Positions 1-56,257 of a stretch of DNA of 64,000 nt are shown in pieces (the first letter of the stretch is position 1; every line of letters begins with the position of its first letter). Under the pieces are notes generated by a model that was given only the letters and a program-made list of their open reading frames with translations, had not been told where the DNA came from and ran no database searches. The stretch is from positions 558,001 to 622,000 of the forward strand of contig CM022678.1 of NCBI GenBank assembly GCA_012295275.1. Direction: 5' to 3'. The position numbers and the translations under genes were made by a program. The DNA is from Chrysomallon squamiferum (taxonomy: Eukaryota; Animalia; Mollusca).

Positions 1-290
1 CAAAAGTTGAGAATGCAGTCAGAGCTGTTTTTATATTAGCTGTTGCTCAACAAGTGATATATGAAATTGTATGCACTGTCTGTGGGTAGGTGTAAATGAA
101 TTATCACTTGTTGCTAATAAGAAAGTGTAGATTGTGAAGTGACAGCAATAGATTTCTTTTTTTGTTATCTGAATATTCCTAAATCTTCTCTCTAACCTCA
201 TATAAATTAAATGAGTTAAATAAAACATTTGTTTTCTTCCTTCTGTATTAAAAATCAATCATTATATTATTATTTTACAGCTCAACCAAT

Positions 291-552
291 ATGGACAACA
301 AAAACAAGAGTTCAGAAGTTTCGTCTAACAGCACAGCTGTTTTGTCCACAGACAAAATCACAGCTGTTTCTTCTTCAGACAAAATCACAGCTGTTTCTCC
401 TTCAGACATCACAGCTGTTTGTTCTGCAGAGACTGAGACAGCTGTTTCTCTCTTAGACAATACAACAAGTGTTTGTCTCTCTGGCATCACACCTCAGTTT
501 TCCTTTGAAGTCACAACAAAAATATATCAACTACCTGTGTCAAGCAGTTGTG
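291..552 (+). CDS. Copy A first coding exon: Ser/Thr-rich N-terminus with about five 9-aa repeats (TAVxSxDKI)
   Basis: Acceptor tattttacag ends at 280, ATG at 291, open frame to donor G|gtaata at 552/553 (phase 1). Homologous to 45025-45249, with the donor at the same position. Confidence 0.7.
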
Positions 553-809
553 GTAATATGCACATTATTTTAATATACTGTTTACTTTTTTGATGGTAAA
601 TTCTAAACTGACAAAAGTACTATTTACACTTGAAACAATACACTGTTTCGATATATTGTTTAGTTCCATCTTAGATATTAGCAAAATTGACACTTTTAAC
701 AAAAAACAGATTGTATTAATGCTCAATGTTGTCCTTACAGATACAAACATTTTTTTAAATTATGCTTGTGAGTTGTAAATTTAAGAAATGTATTTACTCC
801 TTTTCACAG

Positions 810-893
810 ATACTCAAATACAACTTGTAGAAGAGACAGTAAAGATATCTCACTGTGGAAATGTTGTAATAGGAGGCAATAGCACTTTAACTA
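810..893 (+). CDS. Copy A RHIM-like exon (DTQIQLVEETVKISHCGNVVIGGNSTLT)
   Basis: ttttcacag acceptor, A|gtaagt donor, 84 nt, phase 1-1, no stops. The paralogous exon 45828-45896 has the same boundaries and an in-frame length difference. Confidence 0.8.
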
Positions 894-2977
894 GTAAGTT
901 GAAAACTAACTTTTCTTTTCTCTAGATGTTTAACTGATAACAGAACACACATGTGACTTACTTTGGCTCTCGTCTCCAGTATCATGTACAGATCTTTAAA
1001 TTGACTAAGTTGTAACAGTTTCTAATACTGATGTCACCAAGTCATCACAAGAAACACATTTGTTAAAAATCCCTTAGAAATTAATAAGTAGCCTGCAACA
1101 CAATTCTCAACCAATAACTTGCTGAAACATTGAGGAATTTTACATCATAAAATTAAAAAAACATTCTTAAGAACTTGCTGGGAGTGTTGTCCTGTTTTGG
1201 TGCTTGTGATCTTACTGGATGTAACCTAAAACAGCAGTGAACTACACAAGTAAAACCTAATTAACAGACAAGTTGACATCACCAAGCTCACCCAGTAACT
1301 GTTTAGAACTCATTTTACTTTGTGCTGATCTTCTAGCAACATAGCTAAATATTACCAGATAAAACTACTTATTTTTCATTAAATAAAACTAACATTCTTG
1401 ACACCATTAATGCTGCCCAGAATACAAAGCCCACAATACAAAGCCCACTTGTTTAATGTGACATGTGTCAACCAATAACCAGTACACTTCCAAGGATTCT
1501 GTGATCTGCTATTCTTTGCGGTTAGACTTTTTTCACCTTTGGTTTTAGACACTGCTTCTAAAATCATCATTTTCATTATCTTATCACATAACTATGCATG
1601 ATTTAGTATTTGAATTAAAATCTACATATTGATGCAGTAATGGTCATAATTTTTTTTTTTTTTTTTTTTTTAAATCTTAACGTCCATTGTTCTACAAACG
1701 AGGTCATTTAATCATTGTCAGATCATAATGATTTTTCTCCTTTAACGATAGCTGGTGACATATGCAAAAACATCCACATATAAACACACACACACAAACA
1801 CAGACATTTTTAATACTGCATGCATTAAGTGTAGATAGGGACAGTTACAGAAATAATACTTGTAGGCTGTGAATGTAAATAATTTATTTTTCTATATTTG
1901 CAACAACACAAGCAGTGGTAGAACATATTTAAATATGAGCACACATAAACCAATCTACTAACACAAACATTGTATCAGGAGGTGCAGCTGTTGACACCAT
2001 AAAGTGAAAACCTGAATCATATTTAATAGATACAGAACTATATATCACATTAATCATTAGTATTTACCATCAAACACTATGACCAACAAATGCGAACAGA
2101 GACATACATACAGACACACAGACACACACACATACATACATATGTATGTCTACCCACTACCAAGGGTTTACAAATTGTGCAAACAACTGTTTTGTTCACA
2201 TGAGGGTTGCACAAAACTATCCTTATGTAACTCATTTTCCATTCACACAAAATTTGTGCTATGCTGAATGATAGTTTGTTCATGGTTGAAATTAAACCAC
2301 CATTCACCACATCAACAACAATGGCCTGAGTGACAGTAAATATTTCTCTCTGTAGAAATTTTATATTAGGAGACAAAACAACATAATGAAAATAATAGTA
2401 AACAAAGGATTGATGTACCAAGACAACAAACATTTGAAACTGGTAAGATAAAAAGTGAAAGTTTTCTTTTCTCTACCTGTTCAATAGGTAATATAATTCA
2501 TATCAGAGAAGTCTGTACTTTTCTATCACATCTGAAGAACATAGAAACATACACATGCATCAACAAACACAAACACAATATATACAAACACATGTACACA
2601 CATAAGTATTGTCACTCTTATCTAGATTTTCTTATCAAGATCCTGCAACATAAATTAAACAAGCCAATATATCATTATTATCACTTGCAAATAATGAAAT
2701 ACACTACAAAGAACTTAATAATAGTAATAATAATAAGAAGAACACTAATAATTGTAATAATATGAATAATAACAATAAGTAACATTAGTGATAAGAAACA
2801 ACAGCAGTAAATTTAATAAAAGTAGTAATAATTATAGTCAAATAGAAAGATATAATAATAATGTTATATGTTACCAGTGCTGTGAATAAAGTGTAGAGTA
2901 ATTGCACATACCACTTTAATCATTTCATTTACTCATCATCAATAACACAAACTTGTTTTATTTTTATATTGTTTCAG

Positions 2978-3010
2978 CAGAGAGTGATGGACAAGTATCC
3001 AAGATCAAAG
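2978..3010 (+). CDS. Copy A 33-nt linker micro-exon (TESDGQVSKIK)
   Basis: gtttcag acceptor (NAGNAG), AAG|gtatt donor, phase 1-1. Same length and boundaries as 48724-48756. Confidence 0.75.
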
Positions 3011-3249
3011 GTATTATTATTATTATTGTTATCTGAAATTGTCACACCTTATTATCTTCATTAAATTCTGATTAACTAAAATTATGACAACAAACTATTG
3101 TATTTGTTTTTAAACTCCATATCTAATGACCAGTTAAAAATTATATTATTTATATATGAATAATAAAATGTTCTCTAAACAATTAATTATACATGATTCT
3201 ATTTTTACTTTCATTTTTATTTTTTTATTTTTTTAATATTGTCCTACAG

Positions 3250-4409
3250 AGTCTACCAGGCTAGCGTTAAATTCAACTGACTGGAGTGTCTATGTTGAAA
3301 CAAGAGCAGAGAAAAGAGGTGTTGCACTTTTGAAGCAGAATGGTGTTGTCATTGTGATAGGATGTCCAGGTTCAGGAAAGACAACTCTAGCTTTAAGCAT
3401 GATGAAACAGATAGCAAAAGAAGAAAAAAGAGAACCTTACTTGCTGACTCATCACTCTGAATTCAATGACATCTTTCTATCTAGAAATAAGAAAAGTGTT
3501 GTTCTCATTGATGACATATTTGGCAAGACGAATCTTGTTTCAGATTTTACAGACTCATGGGAACTCAAATTTCCAGAGATATGGAGTGTTGTTCAGGATG
3601 GTTCTGTGAAATGTATTATTACTTTAAGAAAACAAATATATTCAGAAACTGAAATTAGTTTGAAGGAATTTGGTCTGTTTAATGAGAAACATGTTATTGA
3701 TCTGCAGAGTGATGACTGTTGTCTGAATTATAATGAAAAAGAAGAAATTCTCAACAAATATCTCAAACAAAAGGATGTTCCAATGGATAAAAGTGGCAAA
3801 CATAAGGTCATTCGCAATTCATGTACAGAGCTAGGATTTCCTCAGATGTGTGAGTTTTATGTTAATTCAAGTGATGCACAAAAAAGAGGAGTTGAGTTTT
3901 TTAAGAAACCTGTAGAATATCTCAAAAAAGAGCTGGAAAAATTGAAAAATGACAAATCACCGATCAACTACCTGGTTCTACTGCTGATTTTGTTCAAAGA
4001 AGGCAGTCTCAGCATTGATTCATTGGACCCTTTTGAAAATGACACTGACTGTGACATAATGAAATTAGTAAGAGAACTGGAACAATTCTGTAAGAATCTA
4101 GAAAACACTAATCTTAGAAATATCAAGGAAACAGCTGATTTTATGTGTGGTACCTATTTGAAGTGTTGTGACAATAAATACACATTTATTCACCAGTCAG
4201 TGTTTGACTCTGTGTTTCTGATGTTTTCATCAGAGTTTCCAGAGAAAGCAGCAGAATTGATAGAAGTGTGTCCTGTCTCCAGGTTGTCAGAATATGTTGT
4301 GACACCTGAAGTTTCTAACAAAAGTCACATTACATTGACTGTGATACTTGACTGCTTTGATTTTCTTCTTCAGGGGTTTATTGACCTGGTATCACAAAGT
4401 TTCAGATAA
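3250..4409 (+). CDS. Copy A STAND NTPase (nSTAND3-like) exon, ending at a premature TAA
   Basis: cctacag acceptor; Walker A GCPGSGKT, Walker B VLIDDIFG, IITLRK, GFP (GxP) and FIHQS motifs. TAA at 4407-4409 corresponds to GAA in copy B. Confidence 0.85.
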
Positions 4410-6188
4410 ATTATTTCAAATCCATCACTCACAGATGAAGAGTTTTTTAAATATCTCATAGAGGAACAAAACTTTTATGGTAAGTTGCCTGAAATACTGC
4501 AACAGAGACTATATAAACATATTATCTTCTGTTGCAAGTTTGTGTATAGTGAATGGACTAAAGACATTGTCAAAATGTTTCACATCAAATCTGCGTAACA
4601 TGAAACTTACATTTGTTATGAAAGAACTTTTGGATATTTCTTGTTTGTTTGGTGATGAAGATGTGAGAATATTGCTAAAATCAGGTGTTATTCCAACATT
4701 TGATACATTCAATGCAGCTGCTTGTTCAAAAACAGACAGTGCTACCATACTCAAAGAATTGTTTCAGTATAAAAAGGTGGTAAAATTGAATTTGTATTCC
4801 CACTTGTTACATATTTCATTTTGTTCAGGTAACATGAACATTGCCTGTCTGTTGGTTGAGATGATAAATAATGAGAAACACAACAGTGAAATCAAGGAAG
4901 AAGCTGTGAAACTGTTTTTGGTTAGATTCCATAGAAAAGTAACATTTAAATCAAGCTGCATGTGTTTGGAAAAGGCTCTTCAAGTTGCTGATGTAATCAA
5001 TTTTTTAAAGAAATTGGTTACCATTGATAAATAAAATTAAAGACATTGCTATCATTGCTGCTGGTCAGAGGTCTTCAAACATAAAAGAAATAGTAAAACT
5101 GAAACCTGATTGTATAAATGATGAGAACAGAGATAAAGTACTTTTAGAAGCAGCTATGTGGGGATGTATTGATACAGTGAATTTTCTCATTGAGCAGAGA
5201 TGTAATGATACAGATGAGAACAACTGGAAGAAAGGTGAAGTACTGAAAGTAGCAGTGATGTTTAACAGTGTAGATGTTGTTCAGTGTCTTCTTGATAAAG
5301 GAGCTGATCCTAATGTGAATGTAGATGTTAACGTGAAATTGATTGTATAGTTTGAAAAGGAAATACGATTAAAACTGTTGTCTGATGACATAACTAGTTT
5401 GAAACTGTCACCTTCAGACTCACCTCTCCACATTTCAGTTCAGCGTGGTGACTTAGATATGATAAAATCACTGATAGAGAGTAATGCTATTGTTAATGCA
5501 GTAAACAGTGAGGGAAAAACTCCACGTCATGAAGCTGCAAAAGCAACACACAGAAAGGAAGTAGCTTTGTTGTTACTGGAAAATGGTGCTGATATTAACA
5601 TAACAGATAAACAAAAGAATTCAGCATTGCACATAGCATCTCAAATTGATATAGATGTGGTGAAAGAAGTAAGAAAAAAAGGTTGTTGAAATAAATGTAG
5701 TTAATACTAAAGGTAAAGTTCATCTTTTTACAACTGTTCAGGATGAACAGAACAAAGTATTTGTTTATTTAGTGGAACATGGAGCTGACCCTAATTTAAC
5801 AGACAATGATAACAATTCTGTTTTACACCTAGCAATATAAGAAAGAAATTTAGAAGTGGTGACAGCATTGATTGATAAAGGCACAGATGTAAATATTAGA
5901 AACTGTGGATGTGTAACTCCTCTTTTTGAGGCTATGAAGTCTCAACAGAGAAATGTAGTTTTGCATGGAGCTAATCCTAATTTAACAGCTAGTGATAACA
6001 ATTCTCTTTTACACATAATAGCTGCATATGGAAATTTAGACATTTTGACAGCACTGATTAAAAAAGATATTGATGTAAATATTAAAAACAGTCGAGGTGA
6101 AACTCTTCTTGATAAAGCAAAGAGTTGTAACAAAACGGGAATTGTTTTATATTTACTGGAGAATGGTGCTAAAGATATTAACAGATAG
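4410..6188 (+). pseudogene. Disrupted helical/ankyrin C-terminal part of copy A
   Basis: ORF fragments 4477-5034, 5024-5350, 5378-5689 and 5856-6188 are collinear with copy B but separated by frameshifts, stops and deletions. Fewer than 10 ankyrin repeats remain. Confidence 0.9.
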
Positions 6189-42385: not shown

Positions 42386-45152
42386 GTAAGTAAATCTTTT
42401 ATTTGTTTAAATTACATTTACACACAAGCAGAAGCAGAAACAGACAGATAAACACACATACATGTACACATTTCAAATTCAAGTGTAATTAAAGTGATTG
42501 TCAGTAAAATAGTAAAATTTAGTATTATAAGCGTACAATGTACAGTACAAGACTGATAAAACTTCAGTTGCCAAAACTAGTCACAAGCTGGGTCCAGGTT
42601 TTATTGAAAAAATAAATCAATCTTGTTATAGTAATGTTACTTATAATATTTTCTTTAAAATTTCTAACCTTTAGCAGTTTTCAGACTTTACATAAAATAT
42701 CTTATAAGATTTGGAATGAAGAATTTAGCAGATTATTGAAAACTGAAGTCTGCAAAGTATCAAAGTATGTTTATACAAGCAGAGAAATAGAGAAAAATTA
42801 TCGTCTAATATTTATTTGACAGTCTTGTTAATCTGTTTTGAAATATTACCCACGTTCATACTGATTTATTCCAAAACTTAAAACTTTAAAAAGTTCTTAT
42901 GGTACTAAAGAAGTAAATATATTACTATATAATTAAATTTAATACAAAGAAATATGATAATCTACCAAAAAATGATAACACTGGAAACTGACAATATAAT
43001 ATCCACCTGGAATTTTTTTTAGCATTCTGGTACAATAAGATTTTTTTTTTTTTATCACAATATTGTCACATAATTTTATTCCTATTTAACACTAATAACA
43101 TATCATTCCATTGTATGGACCATAGACTTCATAAAATAGTTTAAGGAAATTGTTTTAGAGAGAAAATGTCACATTCAGTCTCTAGATTACATCTGTAGTT
43201 AAAGGGTTCAATGACGAATACACATTCAACTGCCTCCAGCATCCAACTCATCTCTCCAGTTAAATGTTGGATTGTCAGATGGTCAGCTACTGTCATTTCC
43301 TGTGATGAGCTGATTCCACTTTCATTGTGTATATAAAATGTTCACTTATGTGCTCAAGTGGATACAAAACTGGACTCCTGACTGGCCTATAGGAATGATC
43401 TGTTGAATGTATTCTTGTCTGTGATCTTTGTGTTTTGGATGTCCACCACTGTGCCAAGTTCACACTGAATGATTTAGCTGTGGTAGACAGTGGGGTTAAA
43501 AATCTATATGTAATATGTGAGTGTACTGCAGTTTCAGAAAATAACATGGAAACCTGATACACAGACCTGTCATAGTGAAATCAGGTGTAACTGTCATTCA
43601 GAAACATGGAACATCATTCTGTTGTCAACAATCACAAAGTTGTAATTACTTGTCACATCGTGTCACTCATTATCTCAGTGCTATCCTTTTCTCCACTTGT
43701 ATATTTGTGACATTTCCATTTAGTGAATTATATAATATTCACAACACCCTTATTTTGTTGTGACCATTTAAAGCAGAATGTCTCCAACATTTTATGTTAG
43801 TATATTATTATATTACAATAATATTTAATTAGCCATCGTGTATAATCATGTATGTAATTAATATTTTTACAGTTCTTAACTGTTTACCTAATTAATATCA
43901 GAAAATTAGGATAAATACACAACATCTAAATAGCAGGGTATATGCAGACAACCATGGGCTGTTTAGAAACAGTGTTATATAATTAGGGGAAGTTCCGTTA
44001 TTTTATAAAATAAGAAACACTGGGATTTACAAACTCAAAATTGGCATTTAGTTCCAAAGTAAATTCAGAAAGGCTATCTACAGAGCTGTTTACTGAATGC
44101 CTGCATAATGTCTATAAATATTCGACGAGCGTTTTAAACGAGATATTTTGATCGGTGCGCTTTCTTGAGACACATTGTCTGGGGGCCGTCTGCTCAAGAC
44201 AAAGGATCACTCAGACAATGCTAATTACGGTTTAAATGTTTTCTGTATGTAACATACATGCTGATTGATTGAAGATAGCTAAATATATTACTGTTGGATA
44301 TTTTATTGTGATATTATGCAGTACGCACTTGCGCTTAAAAACTAAGTAACAAACTAAGATAACTTATTTTAATAACTAAAAAATTAGTTAAAAAGTTAAA
44401 GTAACTAACTGGGCTACTTCCTTTTATATTGCATTGTTCGAATAGTACGATTAAATTATATGTAACCATTGATGCTTTATTTATGTGAAATATATATAAT
44501 AATTACCTATATTCAATTCTTGTTTGTGTTATTGTTCTCTAGTGGATACAGAATAGTCATTTAGTAGTTTAAGCTGTCTCAGATAATCAACACCTTGTCA
44601 CGTGACGCTATTATAGTCTGCTACCCTTTAGACGGGACGAGCCAAATTTTAGGTATCAGTACCACCCAGTCTAGTCATAGTGAAAATATCTTAGTATAAC
44701 TGTTGTGATAATTATTGACGTAATTTAGTACTGTAGTTTAAAAGAATCCTGTAAATGTTTTGTGATAATTACTGGAGTTAATTATTACAAAATATTTTAA
44801 ATGAACTGACTGTAATATGATGTAAGAGTAATTAATTGCAACAATATTAAATTTTGACATTAGCACTGATGTGATAATTATGTTTTCATGACTATTTTTA
44901 TATAACAGTCTAACACAAAATAATTATTTAGTAAATAAGGACGTGTATTAAAAAATTCTTATTTCATTATTTTAAAATACTTTCAGGAATATATTTAGTG
45001 AACAAAAGTTGAGAATGCAGTATGAGCTGTTTCGTCCACAGACAACATCACAACTGTTCGTTCCTTGGACACCATCACAGCTGTGTCATCCACATACAAT
45101 ATTACAACTGTTTCTTCTGTAGCGACTGACAAATGGTTCTTTCTTAGACAAA

Positions 45153-45249
45153 ATGTCAAGTGTTTGTCCCTCTGACATCACATCTCAGTCTTCATGTGAC
45201 ATTACAAATACAGGATGTCATGTACAACAACCTGAGTCAAGCAGTCACT
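45153..45249 (+). CDS. Copy B first coding segment (MSSVCPSDITSQSSCDITNTGCHVQQPESSSH) within an exon starting at 44987
   Basis: tttcag acceptor ends at 44986; aaaATG at 45153 is in the frame homologous to copy A; donor T|gtaaca at 45249/45250, phase 1. The donor is weak and the start is uncertain. Confidence 0.55.
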
Positions 45250-45827
45250 GTAACACACACAATATTTCTATATACTGTTTAATGTTTTGATATTATAAAC
45301 ATTCAAAATTATTTTTACTTTTGTAATCATAGAATATTTCAATATATTGTTTACTTTATTGATGGTAAATTCTAAACTGACAAATGTACTATTTACATTT
45401 AGAACAATACAGTGTTTCAGTATATTGTTTAGTTCTGTCTTAGCCATTATAAAAAAGACACCTTTTAAATTTATATTCATAATAATTAGCAGTTTAAAGT
45501 CTTTATGGCCTTTTTGTTTCACAGATTAAAACAGTAATGCAAACTACACACTAGACACTGTCTGATTACTTTATCATGAGCATTATAATAATTCTTGTTT
45601 TTCTATGTATTTTAGTACTGTAAAATAATATGTATTTCATAGCACCTACACATAATCAGTTAAAAACATTTTTGACATATACTGTTATATTTCATAATAC
45701 TTTGTAACAAACAACAGATTCTATTAACAGTGAATGTTGTCCTTACAGATATAAACATTTTTTTTTGTTTTTTGTTTTTTGCTTGTGAGTTGCAAATTTA
45801 AAAACAATTATTTACTCTGTTTCACAG

Positions 45828-45896
45828 ATACTCGAATAAGGCAACATGAGCAACAGACAGCAAATGTTCAAGCGGGAGACAATAACACTATAATTA
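45828..45896 (+). CDS. Copy B RHIM-like exon (YTRIRQHEQQTANVQAGDNNTII)
   Basis: gtttcacag acceptor, A|gtaaga donor, 69 nt, phase 1-1; paralog of 810-893. Confidence 0.75.
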
Positions 45897-47021
45897 GTAA
45901 GATCAAAACTAAAATTTCTTACGTATTTGTTTTCTCTACATTTTTAATTGATAACAGAATACACATGTGACATACTCTGGCTAAAGGAGACACGTCCAAA
46001 TTCCGAGATATGAATATATTTTGCATGTATGTGCAATATCCTTTCCAATACATCATGTATATATCTTGGAAATTGACTAAGTTGTAGCAGTTTCTAATAC
46101 TGATTCACCAAGTCATCACAACATAGCTACATAAATAAAACACTGACTAAACTTCTTGAATACAATGCCCACTTGTCATATGTGACCTATCTCAACCAGT
46201 AATCACTACATTATCTAAAGATTCTGTGATCTGCTATTCTCTGCTGTTAGGATTATTTTCACCTTTGTTTCCAGTCACTGCTTCTAAAATCGTCATTTTC
46301 ATTATCTGTTTGTGTGAATATGCATGTTTTAGCATTTTTAATGGTAATTTTTTAATTTTGTTAAATTAATTTTTTTATTATTATTATTATTTTTTTTTTT
46401 ATCTTATCTCTATTGTTCTAAAAACAAGGGCTGGAAATCAAGGCATTTTGTCTTTTTTGTTATGTTCCCTTTACTTCGGTTTTTAACTGAATATATCGAA
46501 AATTACTAATTATTCCTTTCAAATTATCAAAGCAACATTAATAATTCAAAACACTGTCCTGCTTTTAGCTATGAATTTAAATAAATTACCTTTTTTTTTT
46601 AAATTATATAACTATATTAATTATTTCCAGTCATAATCCTTAGTTTGTATGTATTATTTCTAATTTATAAAATAAAATACATATTTTTAAAAAAAGGTAC
46701 GGAAAAGAAAATGATTATGCAAATATTTTTCGGATAACCCACTAATGGCTTAAATAGAATTTACACACTCACAGATACACAGACAGATAATAACATATAA
46801 ACAAATACACACACAGACATTCACACATACAAACACGTTCAGGCATAGCATAAGTTCTGACTGAGAGTTTCTTCTTAAACTGTTAATATAACAACATGAA
46901 TTAAACATGACTTTATGCCTGTCATTATTATCACCTGTAAATATTAAATATACTGCAAGGTATAGGTAATAACAACAACAACAGCAGTAACAATAACAAT
47001 AACAACAGCAACAATAAACAA

Positions 47022-47923
47022 CGGGGCGTCTAACGCAGGCGCAAGCGACCTGTAATTAACAACGTTGTCACGTAACCAAATTAGAATCCTCTAACGGCCG
47101 TAACACTCTTCCCCAAAAATAACACTAACATACAGACCTCCCTGTATCGGGTAGTCAGATGCCCAATTTTGCTCGGCTCTAAGGGTATTCAGGGAACAAG
47201 GCTATATATGTATTTATATTTACTGTTAATCCATTAGAAACACAAAAACACAAGTTTAGATTTAAAGAATATTTGTATTATATTATCTAACAATAGTTAT
47301 TTACCGAGTAAGCTTACAAAGCTTCCACTGCCAATTACAAACAGTTTTACGCCACAAAATCACTCTCACCACATGCGTGAACATGTGGGGGATATTAAAG
47401 ATGTTTAAACTAGCACATCCCAATATGTATTAGAATATGCAAGTACATCAAAATAACATACTGCTTAGCAGGACGTTCACATGACAATAGTTAATAATAA
47501 TACTAATGTAGTATCAGTGCTTACAATTACTGATGGTCGGTGTTGACCTCAGATTCCCAGCTATTCTCACCCACTGTTTCAGTTTACTTTGATCAGTCTG
47601 ATCTCAGAATACCAGCTGTTCTCCAAAATAATGGTTATACTATTTCAATACATAAACATATACATTTTATTATTTAGGAAAGACCACATAGGTCGTCTTT
47701 TAACATTCCTTCCCCATAGTGGTTCCGAGATTGGTTTGAATTTCAGCAGACAAGCAGACGCTAGTGGGTTCCCCAAAACAACATTTCACAAAGCTTATAT
47801 ATTTTTTAAGGAAATATAACATCCATTACGTATTAAAGAGGAGACTGGCGTCTTCATGTCATTTAGCTTATGTAATTCTTAAGCGTTACATATTAGAAAG
47901 GAGACTGGTTGTCTCTGTCACAC
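47022..47923. mobile_element. Unclassified intronic insertion with a long target-site duplication
   Basis: Flanked by caacagcaacaataaacaa (47003-47021) and caacagtaacaataaacaa (47924-47942); absent from the copy A intron (about 2770-2790). Confidence 0.55.
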
Positions 47924-48018
47924 CAACAGTAACAATAAACAAGAACATTAGTGATAAGAAACAACAGCAGTATTTATGAAAATAGTAGGAGTAATTATAT
48001 AAAGTAAATAACAAAGAT

Positions 48019-48580
48019 GGTGTCAGGGCATTTAACCACTGGATATATCCCCCGTGACAGTCCCCCCCCCGTCTACCTGTTTTATCTGTCAAATATCATG
48101 GCTTATAGTCTGAGTCATTAATAAGGTTTTTTATGGGGCCAAACATTGCTTAAATTTGGGAATAATGAAAAAGGATAAATTATTCTTGGTTTTGTTTGTT
48201 TAACAACAAATTTAACTGGTTAAACCTCATGTTGTTCCAAAGTTCATGTCAACAAACTACAATCATTATCCAAATATCTGGCTGTTTCTGGATGTCCTGA
48301 AAAAAGAACAATCCCTCAATACTGTAACACTGCACCAGATACTGTTGTGTCTACACAGACATCACCCAGCGGCTTCAGACTGTCGTCACAGACTACGGCA
48401 ACAGAGACTGCCAGGACGTGCGACGTGTTGCTGCACACAATCTCCACATGTAAAATGTTTCAAATAAACAATTTGTGTCATATACAATTATCTTTTTATC
48501 TCAAGATAATCTGTGCAAGAGATCAGTTACGCTTGGCATGGTAGGCAGGGGGAATTGTCACGGGGGAAATGACCTATAAT
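48019..48580 (+). mobile_element. Mutator-like (MULE) deletion derivative
   Basis: TSD taacaaagat at 48009-48018 and 48581-48590; subterminal inverted repeat cccccgtgaca / tgtcacggggg; internal YPNIWLFLDVLKKEQ resembles the MULE transposase C-terminal HPNIWxFxxxLKxEQ motif. Confidence 0.75.
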
Positions 48581-48723
48581 TAACAAAGATCTAATAATAA
48601 TAAATTACATGATTACTGTTTCACGAATAAAGTACAGATTAATTGTACAGATCACTTTAATTATTCTCTTTTACTCAACATCAATAATACAAAGTTAATT
48701 GTTTTATTTTTATATTATTTCAG

Positions 48724-48756
48724 TAAATACTGATGGAAAAGCATCCAATACCAAAG
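48724..48756 (+). CDS. Copy B 33-nt linker micro-exon (INTDGKASNTK)
   Basis: atttcag acceptor, AAG|gtatt donor, phase 1-1; paralog of 2978-3010. Confidence 0.75.
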
Positions 48757-49031
48757 GTATTTTTTATTATTATTTCTTAAGTATTTTTATAGTTTTCTAA
48801 GCGATTCATAAATAGAAAGAAAATCATCTCACTACACTTATACCATCTAAAAGTGTGACATCTTATTATCATCATTAAATTCTGATTAACTAAAATTATG
48901 ACAACAAACTGTTTTATATCAAAAACTTCACATCTGATTATGAAATTTATATGATTTTTATTTACATAATCATCTATGCTTTAAACAGTTAATAATATAT
49001 ATATTTTTTGTTTCTTTATGTTGTGATACAG

Positions 49032-52000
49032 AGTGTACCAGGTCAATGTTAAACTCAGTTGACTGGAGTGTCTATGTTGAAACAAGAGCAGAGAAAAGAG
49101 GTGTTGCACTTTTGAAGAAGAACGGTGTTGTGATTGTAGTAGGATGTCCAGGTTCAGGAAAGACAACTCTAGCTTTGAGCATGATGAGACAGATAGAAAA
49201 AGAAGAAAAAAGAGAATCTTACTTGCTGACTCATCACTCTGAATTCAGTGACATCTCTCTATCTAGAAATAACAAATATGTTGTTCTCATTGATGATATA
49301 TTTGGTAAGACGAATCTTGTTTCACATTTTAGAGACTCATGGGAACAGAAATTTCCAGAGATATGGAGTCTTGTTCATGCTGGTTCTTTGAAATGTATTA
49401 TTTCTTTAAGAAAACAAATATTTTCAGAAAGTGAAATTAGTTTGAAGGAATTTGACCTGTTTAATGAGAAACATGTTCTTGATCTGCAGAATGATGACTG
49501 TTGTCTGCTTCATGATGAAAAGGATAAAATTCTAAACAAATATCTCAAACAAAAGGATGTTCCAATGGATGAAACTGATAAAACGACTGTCATTTACAGT
49601 TCATGTACAGAGTTAGGATTTCCTCAGGTGTGTGTGTATTATGTTAATTCAAGTGATGCACAAAAACGAGGAGTTGAGTTTTTCAAGAAACCTGTAGAAT
49701 ATCTCACACAGCAGCTGGAAAATTTGAAAAAAGACAAATCTTTACAGATCAATTACCTGGTTCTACTGCTGATCTTGTTCAAAGAAGGCAGTTTCAGCAT
49801 TGATTTACTGGATCCATCTCAAAATGACACCGACAGTGACATAATGAAATTAGTAAGACTGCTAGAGCGAGTCTGTCAGAGTGTAAGAAAGCCTGATCTT
49901 ACAGATATAAAGAAAACAGCTGATCTAATGTGTGGTACCTATTTGAAGCTGTGTCACAATAAATATATTTTTATTCACCAGTCAGTGTTTGACTGCTTGT
50001 TTCTGATATTTACATCAGAGTTTCCAGAGAAAGCAGCAGAATTGCTAGAAGTGTGTCCTGTCTCCATGTTGTTAGAATATGTTGTGACGCCTGGAGTATC
50101 TAACAAAAGTCACATTACATTGACTGTGAGACCTGGCTGCTTTGACTTTCTTGCTCGCAGATTTACTGACTTGCTGGCATCAGACAATGGCAGAGAAACT
50201 ATTTCACATCCATCACTGAAAGATGAAGAGTTTTTAAAATACCTGATAAAGGAAAAATACTTTTGTGGTAGATTGTCTGAAATGCTGCATCAGGAAATAT
50301 ATGAAATAGACTATGTCAAACATTTATGTGAAAATAATGAAACTAAATACAATTATATATCTTTTGTAAATCTTTACAGTGCTAATGAAATATTTTGCAC
50401 AATTTCATGTCTTCTTGACAAAGATTCCAAATTTGACTCTAGTTACACATTGTATTTGAAAGCTGATGAAAATTGTATAGAGTTATCTTCTGTTGCAAGT
50501 TTGTGTATAGTGAATGGACTAAGAACATTGTCGAAATGTTTCATATCAAATCTGTGTAACATGAAACTAACATTTGTGATGAAAGAACTTTTGGATATTT
50601 CTTGTTTGTTTGGTGATGAAGATGTTGTGAGAATGTTGCTAAAATCAGGTGTTATTTCAACATTTGATACATTCTGTGCAGCTGCTTGTTCAAAAACAGA
50701 CAGTGCTACCATACTCAAAGAACTGTTACAGTATAAGCAGGAGATGAAACTGAATATGTGTCCTCACTTGTTACATATTTCTATTTGTTCAGGTAATATA
50801 AAGATTGCCTGTCTGTTGGCTGATATGATAAATAATGAGAAACACAACAGTGAAGTCAAGGAAGAAGCTGTAAAACTGTTACTGGTTAGATTCCATAAAC
50901 AAGTAAAAGTTGTGTTACATGATAGGCATGTTGTGGAATGTGAGAGGTATTTTGGAAAGGCAAAGACTATTAAAGCTGATGATGTAAACAGTCTTTTTAA
51001 GAAACTGGTTACCATTGATATAATAAATAAAATTAAAGACATTGCTATCGTTGCTGCTTGTCAGAATAGTTCAAGTCTTATGAAAGAAATAGTAAAACTC
51101 AAACCTGATTGTATAAATGATGAGAACAGAGATAAAGTACTTTTAGCAGCAGCAATGTGGGGATCTACTGACACAGTGTATTTTCTCATTGAGCAGAGAT
51201 GTAATGATAAAGATGAGAACAACTGGAAGAAAAGTGAAGTACTGAAAGTGGCAGTGATGTTTAACAGTGTAGATGTTGTTCAGTGTCTTCTCGATAAAGG
51301 AGCTGATCCAAATGTGAATGTAGCTGTTAATATGAAATTGATTCGATTCTTTGTAAAAGAAATCATATCACAAGTGTTTTCTGGTGGCATATTAATAATA
51401 CAATCATTGGTTCGTCTAAAAACTATTGACAAAACTGAATTGCTTCAAGATGAACCTAGTTTGAAACTGGTGCCTTCAGACTCACCTCTTCACATTTCAG
51501 TTCTGCGTGGTGACCTAGATATGATAAAATCACTGATAAAGAGAAATGCTGATGTTAATGCAGTAAACAGTGAGGGAGAAACTCCACTTCATAAAGCTGT
51601 AAAAGCAGTGACACAGAGAAAGGAGGTAGCTTTGTTGTTACTTGAAAATGGTGCTGATATTAACATAACAGATAAAAGAAACAATTCAACATTGCACATA
51701 GCCTCTCAAATTGACATAGATGTAGTGAAAGAAGTAATAAAAAAATGTGATGAAATAAATGTAATTAACACTCAAGGAGAAACTCCTCTACTTTTGTCCT
51801 TATACAATAACAGACCTGAAACAGGCAAATATTTACTAAAAAATGGAGCTGATCCTAATATAACAGACAATGATAAGAATTCTGCGATACACATAGCAGC
51901 TCAACGTGGAAATCTCGAAATTGTGACAGCACTGATTGAAAAAGGGGTTGATGTAGACGTTAAAAACAGTAAAGATGAAACACCACTTACTATAGCTATG

Positions 52001-55000
52001 AAATCTAAAACGCAGAAAGTAGTTTTGTATTTACTGGAACATGGAGCTGATCCTAATTTAACTAACTGTTTTAACAATTCTACTTTACACTTAGCAGCTG
52101 AACATGGAAATATGGAAATTGTGACATCACAGATTGAAAAAGGTGTTGATGTAGACGTTAAAAGCAGTAACGGTGAAACTCCTCTTTTTACAGCTGTTAA
52201 GTATAAACAGAACAAAGTAGCGTTTTATCTGCTGGAACGTGGAGCTCATCCTAATGTAATAGACAATGATTACAATTCGCTTTTACACATAGCAGTCAAA
52301 AATGCAAATATAGAAATTGTGAAAGCACTGATTGAAAAAGGTGCTGATGTAAATATTAAAAACTGTCGAGGTGAAATTCCTCTTTTTACCGCTTTTAAGT
52401 ATAAACATAACAAAGTAGTTGCGTATTTACGCGAAGACGAACCTTTGAACCAAGTAGTTTCTTATTTATTAGACCACGGAGCTGATCCTAATTTAACAGA
52501 CAATGATAACAACTCTGTTTTACACCTAGCAGCTGAGCATGGAAATATAAAAATTGTGACAGCACTGATTGAAAAAGGTTTAGATGTAAATATTCAAAAC
52601 TGTAGGGGTGAAACTCCTCTTTTTGCAGCTGTTAGCTATCAACAGAGACAAGTAGTTTTGTATTTAATGGAACATGAAGCTGATCCTACTTTAAGAAACA
52701 ATGATAACAATTCTGTTTTACACCTAGCAGCAAAATATCGAAATATTGAAATTGTGACAGCACTGATTCAAAAAGGTGTTGCTGTAAATATTAGAAATAA
52801 TAATGGTGAGACCCCTCTTTCTACAGCAATTATGCATCACCACAAAAAAGTATTTTATTATTTACTAGAACATGGAGCTGATCTTAATTTAAAAGATACT
52901 AATAACAATTCTATTTTACACGTAGCAGCTAAATATGGAAATATAGAACTAGTGACAGCACTGATTGAAAAAGGGTTTTTTGTAAATATTAAAAATAGCC
53001 GAGGTGAAACTCCCCTTTTTAAAATTGTTGAGAATCAAGGATTTTTCTCATTACAAGGACACGAACGTTTGAACAATCTATTTTTTTATCTCCTCAGAAA
53101 TGGAGCCGATCCCAATTTAAGAGACAATGATAACAATTCTGTTTTACACCTAGCAGCTAAACAAGGATTTATTGAAATTGTGACAGCACTGATTGAAAAA
53201 GGTTTTGGGGTAAATATTAAAAACAGGCGAGGTCAAACTCCTCTTTTTACAGCTTTTACTTATAATGAACTTGAACCATCTCTGAACAATGAAAAATGTA
53301 AAGTAGTTTTGTACTTATTGGAACATGGAGCTGATCCTAATTTATCAGACAATGATAACAATTCTGTTTTACACCTAGCAGCTAAACATGGAAACATAGA
53401 AATTGTGAAAGCACTGATTGAAAAAGGTGCAGACGTAAATATTAGAAACAACACAGGTGTAACACCTGTTTTTATAGCTGTTGGGGCTAAACAGACAAAA
53501 ATAGTTTTGTATTTACTGGAACACGGAGCTCATCCTATTTTAACAGACCATCATAACAATTCTGTTTTACACGTAGCAGCTCTAAATGGAAATGTAGAAC
53601 TTGTGACCGCACTGATTGAAAAAGGTGCTGATGTAAATCTTAGAAACTGCCAAGGCTACACTCCTCTTTTTTCAGCTCTTTGTAGCTATGTATTTGATCC
53701 TTCTCTGAAGAATGAAATATGTAAAGTTTTGTATTTACTGGAACATGAAGCTCATCCTAATTTAACAGACAATGATACCAATTCTGTTTTACACATAGCG
53801 TATTCACTTACAAATATAGAAACTGTAACAGCACTGATTGAAAAAGCTGTTGATGTAAATATTAGAAACAGCCAAGGCGACAGTCGTCTTTTTACAGCTC
53901 TTTCTAACTGTCAACTTGACCCATCTCTGAAGAATAAAATATGTAAAGTAGTTTTGTACTTATTGGAACATGGAGCTGATCCAAATTCAATAGACAATGA
54001 TAACAATTCTGTTTTACACATAGCGTCTTCACTTACAAATATAGAAACTGTAACAGCACTGATTGAAAAAGGTGTCGATGTAAATATTAGAAACAGCCGA
54101 GGTCAAACTCCTCTTTTTACAGCTCTTTCTAACTATGAATGTCATTCATCTCTGAAGAATGAAATATGTAAAGTAGTTTTGTACTTATTGGAACATGGAG
54201 CTGATCCAAATTTAATAGACAATGATAACAATTCTGTTTTACACATAGCGTCTTCACTTACAAATATAGAAACTGTAACAGCACTGATTGAAAAAGGTGT
54301 CGATGTAAATATTAGAAACAGCCGAGGTCAAACTCCTCTTTTTACAGCTCTTTCTAACTATGAACGTCATTCATCTCTGAAGAATGAAATATGTAAAGTA
54401 GTTTTGTACTTATTGGAACATGGAGCTGATCCAAATTTAAAACTCACTGACAACAATTCTGTTTTACACCTAGCAGCTGCAGTTGCAGATATAGATATTG
54501 TGAGAGCACTGATTGAAAAAGGTGCTGATGTAAATATTAGAAACGGCGAAGGTGCAACTGCTTTATCTATTGCTTTTAGTTACCGTAGAGATGATCCATC
54601 TATGAAGAATGAAATATGTAAAGTAGTTTCGTATTTACTGGAACATGGAGCTGATCCTAATTTAAAACTCGCTGACAACAATTTTGTTTTACACCTAGCA
54701 GCTGCACTTGGAAATATAGAAATTGTGAGAGCACTGATTGAAAAAGGTGCTGATGTAAATATTAGAAACGGCGAAGGTGCAACTGCTTTATTTACAGCTT
54801 TTGCTTACGGTGAATATGAACCATCTATGAAGAATGAAATATGTAAAGTAGTTTCGTATTTACTGGAACATGGAGCTGATCCTAATTTAACATACAATGA
54901 CGACAACTCTGTTTTACACCTAGCAGCTGCACGTGCAAATATAGAAATTGTGAGAGCACTGATTGAAAAAGGTGCTGATGTAAATATTAGAAACAGCCAA

Positions 55001-56257
55001 GGTCAAACTCCTCTTTTTACAGCTTTTGGTTACAGACAAAATGATCCATCTCTGAAGAATGAAATAGGTAAAGTAGTTTCGTATTTACTGGAACACGGAG
55101 CTGATGCTAATTTAACAGACACTGACAACTATTCTGTTTTACACCTAGCAGCTGAACTTGGAAATGAAGAAATTGTGAGAGCACTGATTGAAAAAGGTTT
55201 TCAAATAAATATTAAAAACAGCCAAGATGAGACTCCTCTTTTGATAGCACTTAAGTATCAACAGAACAAAGTAGTTTTGTATTTAATGGAACACGGAGGT
55301 GATCCTAATTTAACAGACACTGACAACTATTCTGTTTTACAGCTGGCAGCTGCATTTGGAAATATAGAACTTGTGACAACACTGATTGAAAAAGGTGCTG
55401 ATATAAATAGTAAAGACAGCCAAGGGCTCACTCCTCTTTTTATTTCTCTTTTTTGCAGTATACACGACTCATCTCTGAATGTTGAAAAATATAAAGTATT
55501 TTTCTATTTGCTGGAACATGGAGCTAATCCTAATATAACAGACAATGATAACGATTCTGTTTTACACTTAACAGCTCATCAAGGATATATAGAAATTGTG
55601 ACAGCACTGATTGAAAAAGGTGCTGATGTAAATATTAGAAACAGAAGAGGTGAAACTCCTCTTTTTGCAGCTCTTGCTTACAATGAATGTGGTCCACCTC
55701 TGAAGGATGAAAACTGTAATGTAGCTTTGTATTTATTGGAACATGGAGCTGATCCTACATTAACGGACAATGATAACAATTCTGTTTTACACCTAGCAGC
55801 TAAACAAGGATTTATTGAAATTGTCACAGCACTGATTCAAATAGGTGTTGATGTAAACATTAAAAACAGTCGAGGTGAAACGCCTCTTCTTATTGCTGTT
55901 AAACATGCACATTGGATACAGGTTTTGTATTTTCTACGGCGAGAACCTTCGAAGAAAGTAAATTTGTATAAACAACGACATCAAGCTTTGAAGAAAGTAG
56001 CTTTGTATTTACTGGAACATGGAGCTGATCCTTATTTAACAGACAATGAAAATGATTTTGTTTTACAGCAAGCAATGAAACATAGAAATGTTGATGTTAT
56101 ATTAGCAGTGACTGAAAAAGGTAGAGATGTAAATACTAAACATAGTCGAGATGAAACTCCTCTTGATAAAGCAAAGAGTTGTAACAGAAGGGGAATTATT
56201 TTAAGTTTACTGAGAATGGTGCTAACGATATTAACAGATAGATACATTTTGTTATAA
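49032..56257 (+). CDS. Copy B giant terminal exon: nSTAND3-like STAND NTPase, helical region and about 44 ankyrin repeats (NLR-like receptor)
   Basis: 2403-aa ORF from 49046; gatacag acceptor at 49031 is in frame with the upstream exons; Walker A GCPGSGKT, Walker B VLIDDIFG, GFP and FIHQS motifs; alternating SVLHLAA / TPLFTA ankyrin repeats. Confidence 0.93.
51480..56240 (+). repeat. Coding ankyrin tandem array of about 22 two-repeat units (mostly 198 or 225 nt)
   Basis: About 44 repeats counted by eye. Units 53991-54215 and 54216-54440 are identical except at one base. Confidence 0.92.

What the first reader, a model, noticed from the sequence alone, without database searches (positions are those of the whole stretch)
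810..893. Hidden RHIM-like amyloid motif exon at the N-terminus of a STAND-ankyrin receptor (copy A)
Seen: a symmetric phase-1 exon missed by the ORF track encodes VKISHCGNVVIGGNSTLT (839-892) and splices in frame, through a 33-nt micro-exon, to the NTPase exon. Established: this aligns without gaps to the human RIPK3 RHIM (VNIYNCSGVQVGDNNYLT, recalled from memory; 8/18 identical). RHIMs signal by amyloid templating (RIPK1, RIPK3, ZBP1, TRIF; cryptic RHIMs in Drosophila PGRP-LC/Imd). Fungal NLRs such as NWD2, and those with the RHIM-like PP motif, use a short N-terminal amyloid motif plus STAND plus repeats to activate a separate cell-death effector. Inference: this is an animal version of that architecture, in which NTPase oligomerisation nucleates a RHIM amyloid. 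I do not know of a described animal RHIM-nSTAND3-ankyrin receptor but cannot search.
Basis: partly seen in the sequence, partly recalled or inferred. Interest (0 to 1): 0.92.

Follow-up and report, generated by a model that had tools for sequence, protein, structure and literature searches.

The report
RHIM-like exon on snail STAND receptor
A short exon places a peptide closely resembling the amyloid-forming RHIM signal of the human cell-death kinase RIPK3 in front of the NTPase of a likely snail immune-receptor gene, which suggests that molluscs may signal through amyloid as fungi do, although this copy stops before its sensor repeats and amyloid formation is untested.

Summary
The exon is real. 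810-893 has AG/GT ends, is phase 1-1 and joins in frame through 2978-3010 to an nSTAND3 exon. RNA contig lengths and depths fit the spliced form exactly, though indirectly. The RHIM likeness holds: a profile built only from the window's two copies ranks RIPK3 RHIM fibril constructs first to third of 177,635 PDB sequences (E 0.81-1.2), with 8/18 identities. Copy A also keeps the four aliphatic positions that RIPK3 nucleation needs. Against: Pfam RHIM finds nothing, the core reads VVIG (no Q), and copy B has lost the first strand. Correction: copy A is not a full STAND-ankyrin receptor. It stops at 4407-4409 (512 aa) and its ankyrin region carries further breaks; copy B has the intact sensor. 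RHIM-like segments are modestly enriched before nSTAND3 in gastropod and bivalve relatives. An N-terminal RHIM + STAND + repeats layout in an animal is already in print (amphioxus, 2014). This is therefore a new variant: nSTAND3, ankyrin sensor, molluscs. Amyloid formation and partners are untested.

The parts
281..552 (+). Copy A first coding exon (ATG at 291): 87-aa leader, 36% Ser/Thr, with 4.9 copies of a 27-nt repeat
   Evidence: Splice sites and frame; RNA contig X1 record 1 covers 281-551; composition; repeat
810..893 (+). Symmetric phase 1-1 exon (84 nt) carrying the RHIM-like motif
   Evidence: RNA arithmetic; homologous exon in copy B with the same splice sites
839..892 (+). RHIM-like 18-mer; core VVIG; aliphatic residues at the positions of RIPK3 V450, I452, V458, V460, plus G461 and N463
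2978..3010 (+). 33-nt phase 1-1 micro-exon; its product lines up with the stretch that precedes nSTAND3 in relatives
   Evidence: RNA depth in bin 2822-3038
3250..4409 (+). Copy A NTPase exon up to the premature TAA (4407-4409); nSTAND3 about 3291-3767, Walker A at 3360-3383; spliced product 512 aa
4410..6182 (+). Decayed remainder of copy A (helical and ankyrin region): frameshifts near 4505-4520, 5026 and 5682, stops at 5348 and 5838
45153..45249 (+). Copy B leader exon, eroded: the stretch that holds copy A's acceptor and ATG is missing and a 2-nt deletion shifts the frame; the only open phase-1 ATG found in 44900-45249 is at 45153
45828..45896 (+). Copy B motif exon (69 nt): core VQAG followed by DNNTII; first strand lost with an 18-nt deletion
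48724..48756 (+). Copy B 33-nt micro-exon
49032..56257 (+). Copy B intact nSTAND3 plus long ankyrin array (about 40 Pfam Ank stretches)

Best explanation
The exon encodes a RHIM-like peptide that likely acts as the amyloid-nucleating signal module of a mollusc nSTAND3-ankyrin immune-receptor family, and copy A is a transcribed copy that keeps the peptide and NTPase but stops before the sensor, so it is probably a decaying relic of that layout. How an intact member would work: (1) shown: Ser/Thr-rich leader, RHIM-like segment, nSTAND3, then ankyrin array, with the segment in the slot that relatives fill with death, DED, caspase or HEPN domains; (2) inferred from STAND/NLR biology: ligand binding to the ankyrins releases the NTPase, which oligomerises; (3) inferred from NWD2/HET-S, PNT1/HELLP and RIPK1/3: the ring brings the segments together and they stack as cross-beta amyloid; (4) inferred: the seed templates an unlinked RHIM adaptor, most likely a molluscan RIPK1-like protein, and the output is NF-kB signalling or cell death, not a neighbouring HeLo-type gene.
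For: A two-sequence profile of the window's own exons ranks RIPK3 RHIM constructs 1-3 of 177,635 PDB sequences, ungapped over the 18-mer; a control profile from the leader exon gives 0 hits. Copy A matches all four nucleation-critical aliphatic positions reported for RIPK3 (bioRxiv 10.64898/2026.02.19.706818, section 8) plus G and N. Both cores fit the cryptic-RHIM VxxG (PMC13506858). In 71 de-duplicated linkers of relatives: natural tetrad variants 7 sites vs 2.15 in shuffles (P 0.0055), RIPK-type register 4 vs 0.54 (P 0.0045), and copy A's 18-mer scores above the shuffle 95th percentile in 8 of 71 vs 3.5 expected (P 0.017; reversed peptide 2 of 71). Carriers span Gigantopelta, Haliotis, Solemya, Potamilus, Sinanodonta and Argopecten. 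A blind search in 6 Gigantopelta linkers found this register in 4 of 6, and held-out copy A scored best at its motif. Zebra-mussel RIPK1 has a RHIM needed for NF-kB activation (PMC12119088). Decay of copy A: six breaks, and dN/dS against copy B is no lower before the stop (0.76) than after it (0.66).
Against: PDB E-values are 0.81-1.2, not significant, and two unrelated proteins follow closely (E 1.3, 1.7); each exon alone finds no RHIM chain. Pfam RHIM matches neither exon nor any of 48 relatives' N-termini (no positive control was run). The core Q is V in copy A. Copy B, the copy with the intact sensor, fails the mutational-scan pattern. The motif exon is less conserved between A and B (80%) than its flanking introns (86-88%), with pN about equal to pS. 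The strict mutational-scan pattern is not enriched in relatives (1 vs 0.55). Ten patterns were tried, so the best P values are borderline after correction. The blind search switched to another motif when one sequence was swapped, and held-out P was 0.06-0.14. Copy B's peptide shows no significant likeness to relatives' linkers (P 0.21).
Confidence: 0.5

Rival explanations
1. The segment is an Asn/Gly/Val-rich linker with no amyloid role, and its RHIM likeness is chance in a fast-drifting exon.
For: No Pfam RHIM hit; PDB E near 1; exon less conserved than its introns, 9.3 non-synonymous vs 0.7 synonymous changes in the 12 core codons; strict pattern not enriched in relatives; Atlas blank.
Against: RIPK3 ranks first in the PDB with no recalled input; 0.14% shuffle rate for the literature pattern; enrichment of relaxed patterns in relatives; effector-slot position.
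Confidence: 0.25
2. Copy A is a working sensor-less protein: a helper that co-oligomerises with sensor paralogues such as copy B and supplies the amyloid seed, or a decoy that poisons their rings.
For: All six breaks lie after the first 1,536 coding bases (by hand, (1776/3312)^6 is about 0.02 under uniform decay); Walker A and B are intact; contigs identical to A across the stop occur in two RNA runs; the stop lies in the last coding exon, so nonsense-mediated decay would likely not apply (general knowledge); B shows the mirror loss, eroded leader and motif with an intact sensor.
Against: dN/dS before the stop (0.76; core 0.84) is not below that of the dead region (0.66); the RNA libraries may hold DNA; no protein evidence.
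Confidence: 0.15
3. The segment is an amyloid or beta-zipper signal of its own kind that pairs with a snail-specific partner and not with RIPK1-type RHIMs.
For: Relatives' segments are diverse, many end in Q or P instead of G, and some Haliotis proteins share a different Gly/Thr/Met-rich pattern (seen by eye); fungi and bacteria run several non-cross-seeding motif families (PMC7889193).
Against: The nearest solved match is RIPK3 in exact register.
Confidence: 0.1

Closest known systems
Amphioxus RHIM-NACHT-repeat proteins, e.g. Branchiostoma BF82280 (Kajava et al. 2014, PMC4262963; whole text read, figures not held)
   Same: Animal protein with an N-terminal RHIM, a central STAND NTPase and C-terminal repeats; the paper notes that the RHIM takes the place of CARD-type domains
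   Different: NTPase here is nSTAND3, not NACHT; phylum is likely Mollusca; core is non-canonical; copy A lacks the repeats
Fungal amyloid-signalling NLRs: NWD2/HET-S and PP-motif PNT1/HELLP (passages of PMC12881547, PMC7889193, bioRxiv 10.1101/2022.03.16.484565)
   Same: Short N-terminal amyloid-like motif, STAND NTPase, repeat sensor (ANK occurs in fungal NLRs)
   Different: No adjacent effector gene with a matching motif was apparent in the window; the PP signature NxGxQxGxN is not met; the motif lies about 100 residues from the N-terminus
Bacterial BASS3 NLR/Bell pairs (passages of bioRxiv 10.1101/2020.01.06.895854)
   Same: RHIM-like motif at the N-terminus of a STAND-repeat protein
   Different: Two-gene clusters with a Bell effector; G-phi-Q-phi-G signature not met by either copy
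Mammalian RIPK3/RIPK1 RHIM and insect cryptic RHIM (VxxG)
   Same: Ungapped 18-residue alignment to RIPK3 with 8 identities; all four nucleation-critical aliphatic positions, G461 and N463 kept; VxxG met
   Different: Q459 is V and G457 is N in copy A; host protein is a STAND NTPase, not a kinase, sensor or PGRP
Mollusc nSTAND3-ankyrin proteins (Pfam PF20720 + ANK; Gigantopelta, Haliotis, bivalves)
   Same: 45-48% identical NTPase region to Gigantopelta proteins; both copies nest inside that clade with support 100/98
   Different: Annotated only as uncharacterised or ankyrin-like; no RHIM Pfam label in the listings

Membership tests
RHIM (canonical, PF12721) | Core tetrad (V/I)-Q-(V/I/L/C)-G | tested here: not met
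   Copy A VVIG, copy B VQAG; each misses by one residue (consensus from PMC9444067)
RHIM (canonical, PF12721) | Match to the Pfam RHIM model | tested here: not met
   No RHIM hit for either exon or for 48 relatives' N-termini; filters drop weak short matches and no positive control was run
RHIM (canonical, PF12721) | Four aliphatic residues of the first interface (RIPK3 450/452/458/460) and G461 | tested here: met
   Copy A matches in register; copy B does not
RHIM (canonical, PF12721) | Sequence similarity to solved RHIM fibrils | tested here: inconclusive
   RIPK3 constructs rank 1-3 of 177,635 but with E 0.81-1.2; single-exon searches negative
RHIM (canonical, PF12721) | Forms cross-beta amyloid and binds other RHIMs | not testable with these tools
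Cryptic RHIM (cRHIM) | VxxG core | tested here: met
   Both copies; definition from PMC13506858. A weak criterion on its own
Amyloid-signalling NLR (NWD2/PNT1/BASS type) | Central STAND NTPase | tested here: met
   nSTAND3 above the gathering cut-off in both copies
Amyloid-signalling NLR (NWD2/PNT1/BASS type) | C-terminal repeat sensor in the same frame | tested here: not met
   Copy A stops at 4407-4409. Met by copy B and by relatives with RHIM-like segments such as P0103, P0133, P0130, P0083
Amyloid-signalling NLR (NWD2/PNT1/BASS type) | Effector gene with a matching motif, usually adjacent | tested here: inconclusive
   None apparent in the 64-kb window; no whole genome is held
Mollusc nSTAND3-ankyrin family | PF20720 domain grouping with mollusc members | tested here: met

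The most novel reading that the evidence does not exclude
Molluscs run an amyloid signalosome built on nSTAND3-ankyrin receptors, with the RHIM-like module carried on a swappable phase 1-1 exon, and this tandem pair has split the work: copy B senses (long ankyrin array, eroded motif) and sensor-less copy A signals (intact motif and NTPase), co-oligomerising like a sensor/helper NLR pair. The family-level half alone I put near 0.5; the split pair is the bold part.
Probability: 0.1. Interest if true: 0.85.

Novelty: new variant of a known kind. Interest (0 to 1): 0.58.

Why it matters
NLR-type amyloid signalling is shown by experiment in fungi and bacteria, and in animals the receptor layout rests on a 2014 sequence prediction in amphioxus. 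A large, expressed mollusc family with a RHIM-like segment in the effector slot of a different STAND clade would extend this mode to a second animal phylum. It would also give the molluscan RIPK1 RHIM, known to be needed for NF-kB activation, a candidate upstream receptor. The motif sits on small exons that ORF-based and Pfam annotation miss, so such receptors are probably under-counted. The claim is cheap to test with peptides.

Tried and rejected
Pfam scans of both exons and of 48 of the 76 relatives' N-termini of 35 aa or more (I left out, by eye, most of those with folded domains or coiled coils, and duplicates): no RHIM. Single-peptide PDB searches: only unrelated hits. ESM Atlas on the exon and on P0103 90-125: no usable hit. 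De novo EM motif finding on 71 linkers overfitted and was discarded. The regex (2 hits in 127,996 positions) was written from the two copies, so it is circular and not used as evidence. Flank features of one-off tetrads: only downstream Asn was enriched (7 of 22, P 0.012, one of six features). The composition-window score (7.55 vs 6.66) uses weights I chose after seeing the data; a hint only. Metagenome scan: 132 pattern matches, none confirmed. No whole genome, so no paralogue or partner search. No solved relative of the NTPase beyond P-loop matches. Earlier scan notes: none. Summed contig depth over the NTPase is far above that over the exon; this hints at many paralogues but is not a copy number. 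Rejected: assembly error as the cause of the stop (identical contigs in two other samples); chance splice sites (same sites in copy B, frame kept despite a 15-nt length change).

Full report
Setting. The window is AT-rich animal DNA with two tandem copies of one gene, A (291-6182) and B (45153-56257). The NTPase region is 45-48% identical to Gigantopelta aegis nSTAND3-ankyrin proteins, and in a tree of 41 rows (39 relatives that I picked from the 153 held, plus both copies) A and B nest inside the Gigantopelta clade with support 100/98. The host is therefore likely a gastropod. No whole genome is held.

Gene structure. Copy A has exons 291-552, 810-893, 2978-3010 and 3250 onward, with AG/GT ends and phase-1 introns; the joined frame is open for 512 residues. 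Copy B has the same splice sites around a 69-nt version of the motif exon, and the frame is kept. The micro-exon product lines up with the stretch that precedes nSTAND3 in relatives. Four RNA runs of one study and one run of unknown kind hold part of the stretch; I laid three RNA runs and the unknown one. In X1 a 545-nt contig covers 281-551 and has 171 further letters, exactly 1+84+33+53, which predicts an end at 3302; a contig of the same depth ends 26 letters from 3277, as predicted. In X3 the depth in bin 652-868 is 3.48, equal to 12.6 x 60/217. This is indirect. The junctions were not among the joints shown, the contigs differ from A by about 3%, and another X1 contig runs from the exon into the intron (864-1160), so unspliced RNA or DNA is present.

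Copy A is truncated. TAA at 4407-4409 replaces GAA of copy B. Frameshifts follow near 4505-4520, 5026 and 5682, and stops at 5348 and 5838. Contigs from X2 (4224-4500, 4472-4647) and X3 (4212-4467) match A with 0 differences across the stop and the first deletion. So A encodes leader, motif and NTPase module without ankyrins. No break lies in the first 1,536 coding bases (about 0.02 under uniform decay, by hand), but dN/dS against B is 0.76 before the stop and 0.66 after it, which gives no sign of stronger selection on the open part. Copy B is the mirror image: an intact 2,474-aa frame with about 40 ankyrin stretches, but a leader that has lost A's acceptor and ATG, and a motif that has lost its first strand.

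Is the motif RHIM-like? The printed chain confirms the recalled string and 8/18 identity. A control profile from the leader exon gave none. A mutational scan of RIPK1/3 (bioRxiv 10.64898/2026.02.19.706818; passages and section 8 read) finds nucleation to depend on V450, I452, V458 and V460 of RIPK3. Copy A has V, I, V, I there, plus G461 and N463. That pattern occurs in 0.14% of exon shuffles and at 1 of 127,996 six-frame positions; without the Asn the figures are 1.5% and 9. Against: the PDB E-values are near 1 and unrelated proteins follow closely; each exon alone finds no RHIM chain; Pfam RHIM does not hit; the canonical tetrad (PMC9444067, passages) is missed by one residue in each copy; B fails the scan pattern; and the exon is less conserved between A and B (52 of 65 aligned letters) than its flanking introns (50 of 58, 63 of 72).

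Relatives. The representatives search gave 1,251 hits, of which the best 150 were returned. Of 153 proteins held, 147 could be anchored, 73 had a usable linker and 71 remained after removing near-duplicates. Ten patterns were tested against shuffles. Strict tetrad 3 vs 0.6 (P 0.023), natural variants from PMC12119088 7 vs 2.15 (P 0.0055), one-off tetrad 22 vs 17.4 (P 0.16). RIPK-type register, spacing recalled, 4 vs 0.54 (P 0.0045), and two variants of it P 0.007 and 0.022. Mutational-scan patterns 1 vs 0.55, 3 vs 1.26, 7 vs 2.73 (P 0.017) and 0 vs 0.03. A's 18-mer scored high in 8 of 71 linkers vs 3.5 expected (P 0.017); B's did not (5 of 71, P 0.21). A blind search in six Gigantopelta linkers found the same register in four and placed held-out A on its motif (P 0.06-0.14), but failed when P0001 was replaced by P0008. 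Pfam RHIM matched 0 of 48 N-termini. The signal is thus modest but repeated. Clear cases occur in Gigantopelta (P0010, P0011), Potamilus (P0103), Solemya (P0083, P0115, P0130), Sinanodonta (P0109) and Argopecten (P0133). Other relatives carry a caspase (P0004), death (P0078), DED-like (P0145) or HEPN-like (P0092) domain in the same slot (the last two are below Pfam's cut-off), which marks it as the effector slot.

Mechanism. Shown: the layout and the sequence likeness. Inferred from STAND biology and from NWD2/HET-S and PNT1/HELLP (PMC12881547, PMC7889193; passages): ligand binding to the ankyrins frees the NTPase to oligomerise, the clustered segments nucleate amyloid, and the seed templates a partner. 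No partner gene was apparent in the window. The best candidate is an unlinked RIPK1-like protein, since zebra-mussel RIPK1 has a RHIM that is needed for NF-kB activation (PMC12119088, passages). Copy A cannot sense by itself; it is most likely a relic, less likely a helper or decoy.

Prior art. Kajava et al. 2014 (PMC4262963; whole text read; figures not held, supplement not opened) state that the NWD2 layout is found in animal RHIM proteins, naming Branchiostoma BF82280, and that RHIMs there occupy positions usually held by CARD-type domains. Bacterial BASS3 NLRs are another precedent (bioRxiv 10.1101/2020.01.06.895854, passages). Eight searches listed no paper on RHIM-bearing nSTAND3 proteins or on mollusc RHIM-STAND receptors; 'nSTAND3' occurs in five papers, four listed, none on molluscs by title or abstract. 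Passages of PMC8195603, bioRxiv 10.1101/2022.03.16.484565 and PMC13506858 added context only. The library lacks most subscription journals.

Verdict. The exon and its RHIM likeness are real. The 'receptor' label is wrong for copy A, and the layout has an animal precedent. It is a new variant of a known kind: nSTAND3 in place of NACHT, ankyrin sensor, apparently spread across molluscs, with amyloid function untested. Interest 0.58.

Noticed in passing
window 291-6182 and 45153-56257: The two copies have decayed in mirror fashion: A keeps leader, motif and NTPase but has lost the sensor; B keeps a very long sensor but has an eroded leader and motif, and has an ATG at 49046 just inside the NTPase exon that would skip the motif.
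   Followed up: partly
window 857-892 vs 45860-45895: The 12 core codons differ between A and B by 9.3 non-synonymous and 0.7 synonymous changes; small sample, could be drift or diversifying selection on partner specificity.
   Followed up: partly
window 332-460: 27-nt tandem repeat (4.9 copies) in the leader exon, encoding Ser/Thr-rich 9-residue units.
   Followed up: no
window 864-1160: An X1 contig at depth 9.25 reads from the motif exon into intron 2; if it is a transcript, it would end the protein about 10 residues after the motif with no NTPase. It may also be DNA or unspliced RNA.
   Followed up: no
P0019, P0032, P0037, P0040 (N-termini): Four related proteins (P0019 and P0040 named as Haliotis) share a different short Gly/Thr/Met/Asn-rich segment before nSTAND3, possibly a second amyloid-like motif family.
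   Followed up: no
P0004 and P0161 (Haliotis): Proteins with caspase, nSTAND3 and ankyrin domains; in P0004 the caspase domain is N-terminal, an apoptosome-like layout in one chain.
   Followed up: no
P0011 (Gigantopelta, 3,380 aa): Holds more than one nSTAND3-ankyrin unit, with a VQFG-core segment before the internal NTPase; may be two adjacent genes merged by annotation (its neighbour accession P0012 is a separate member).
   Followed up: no
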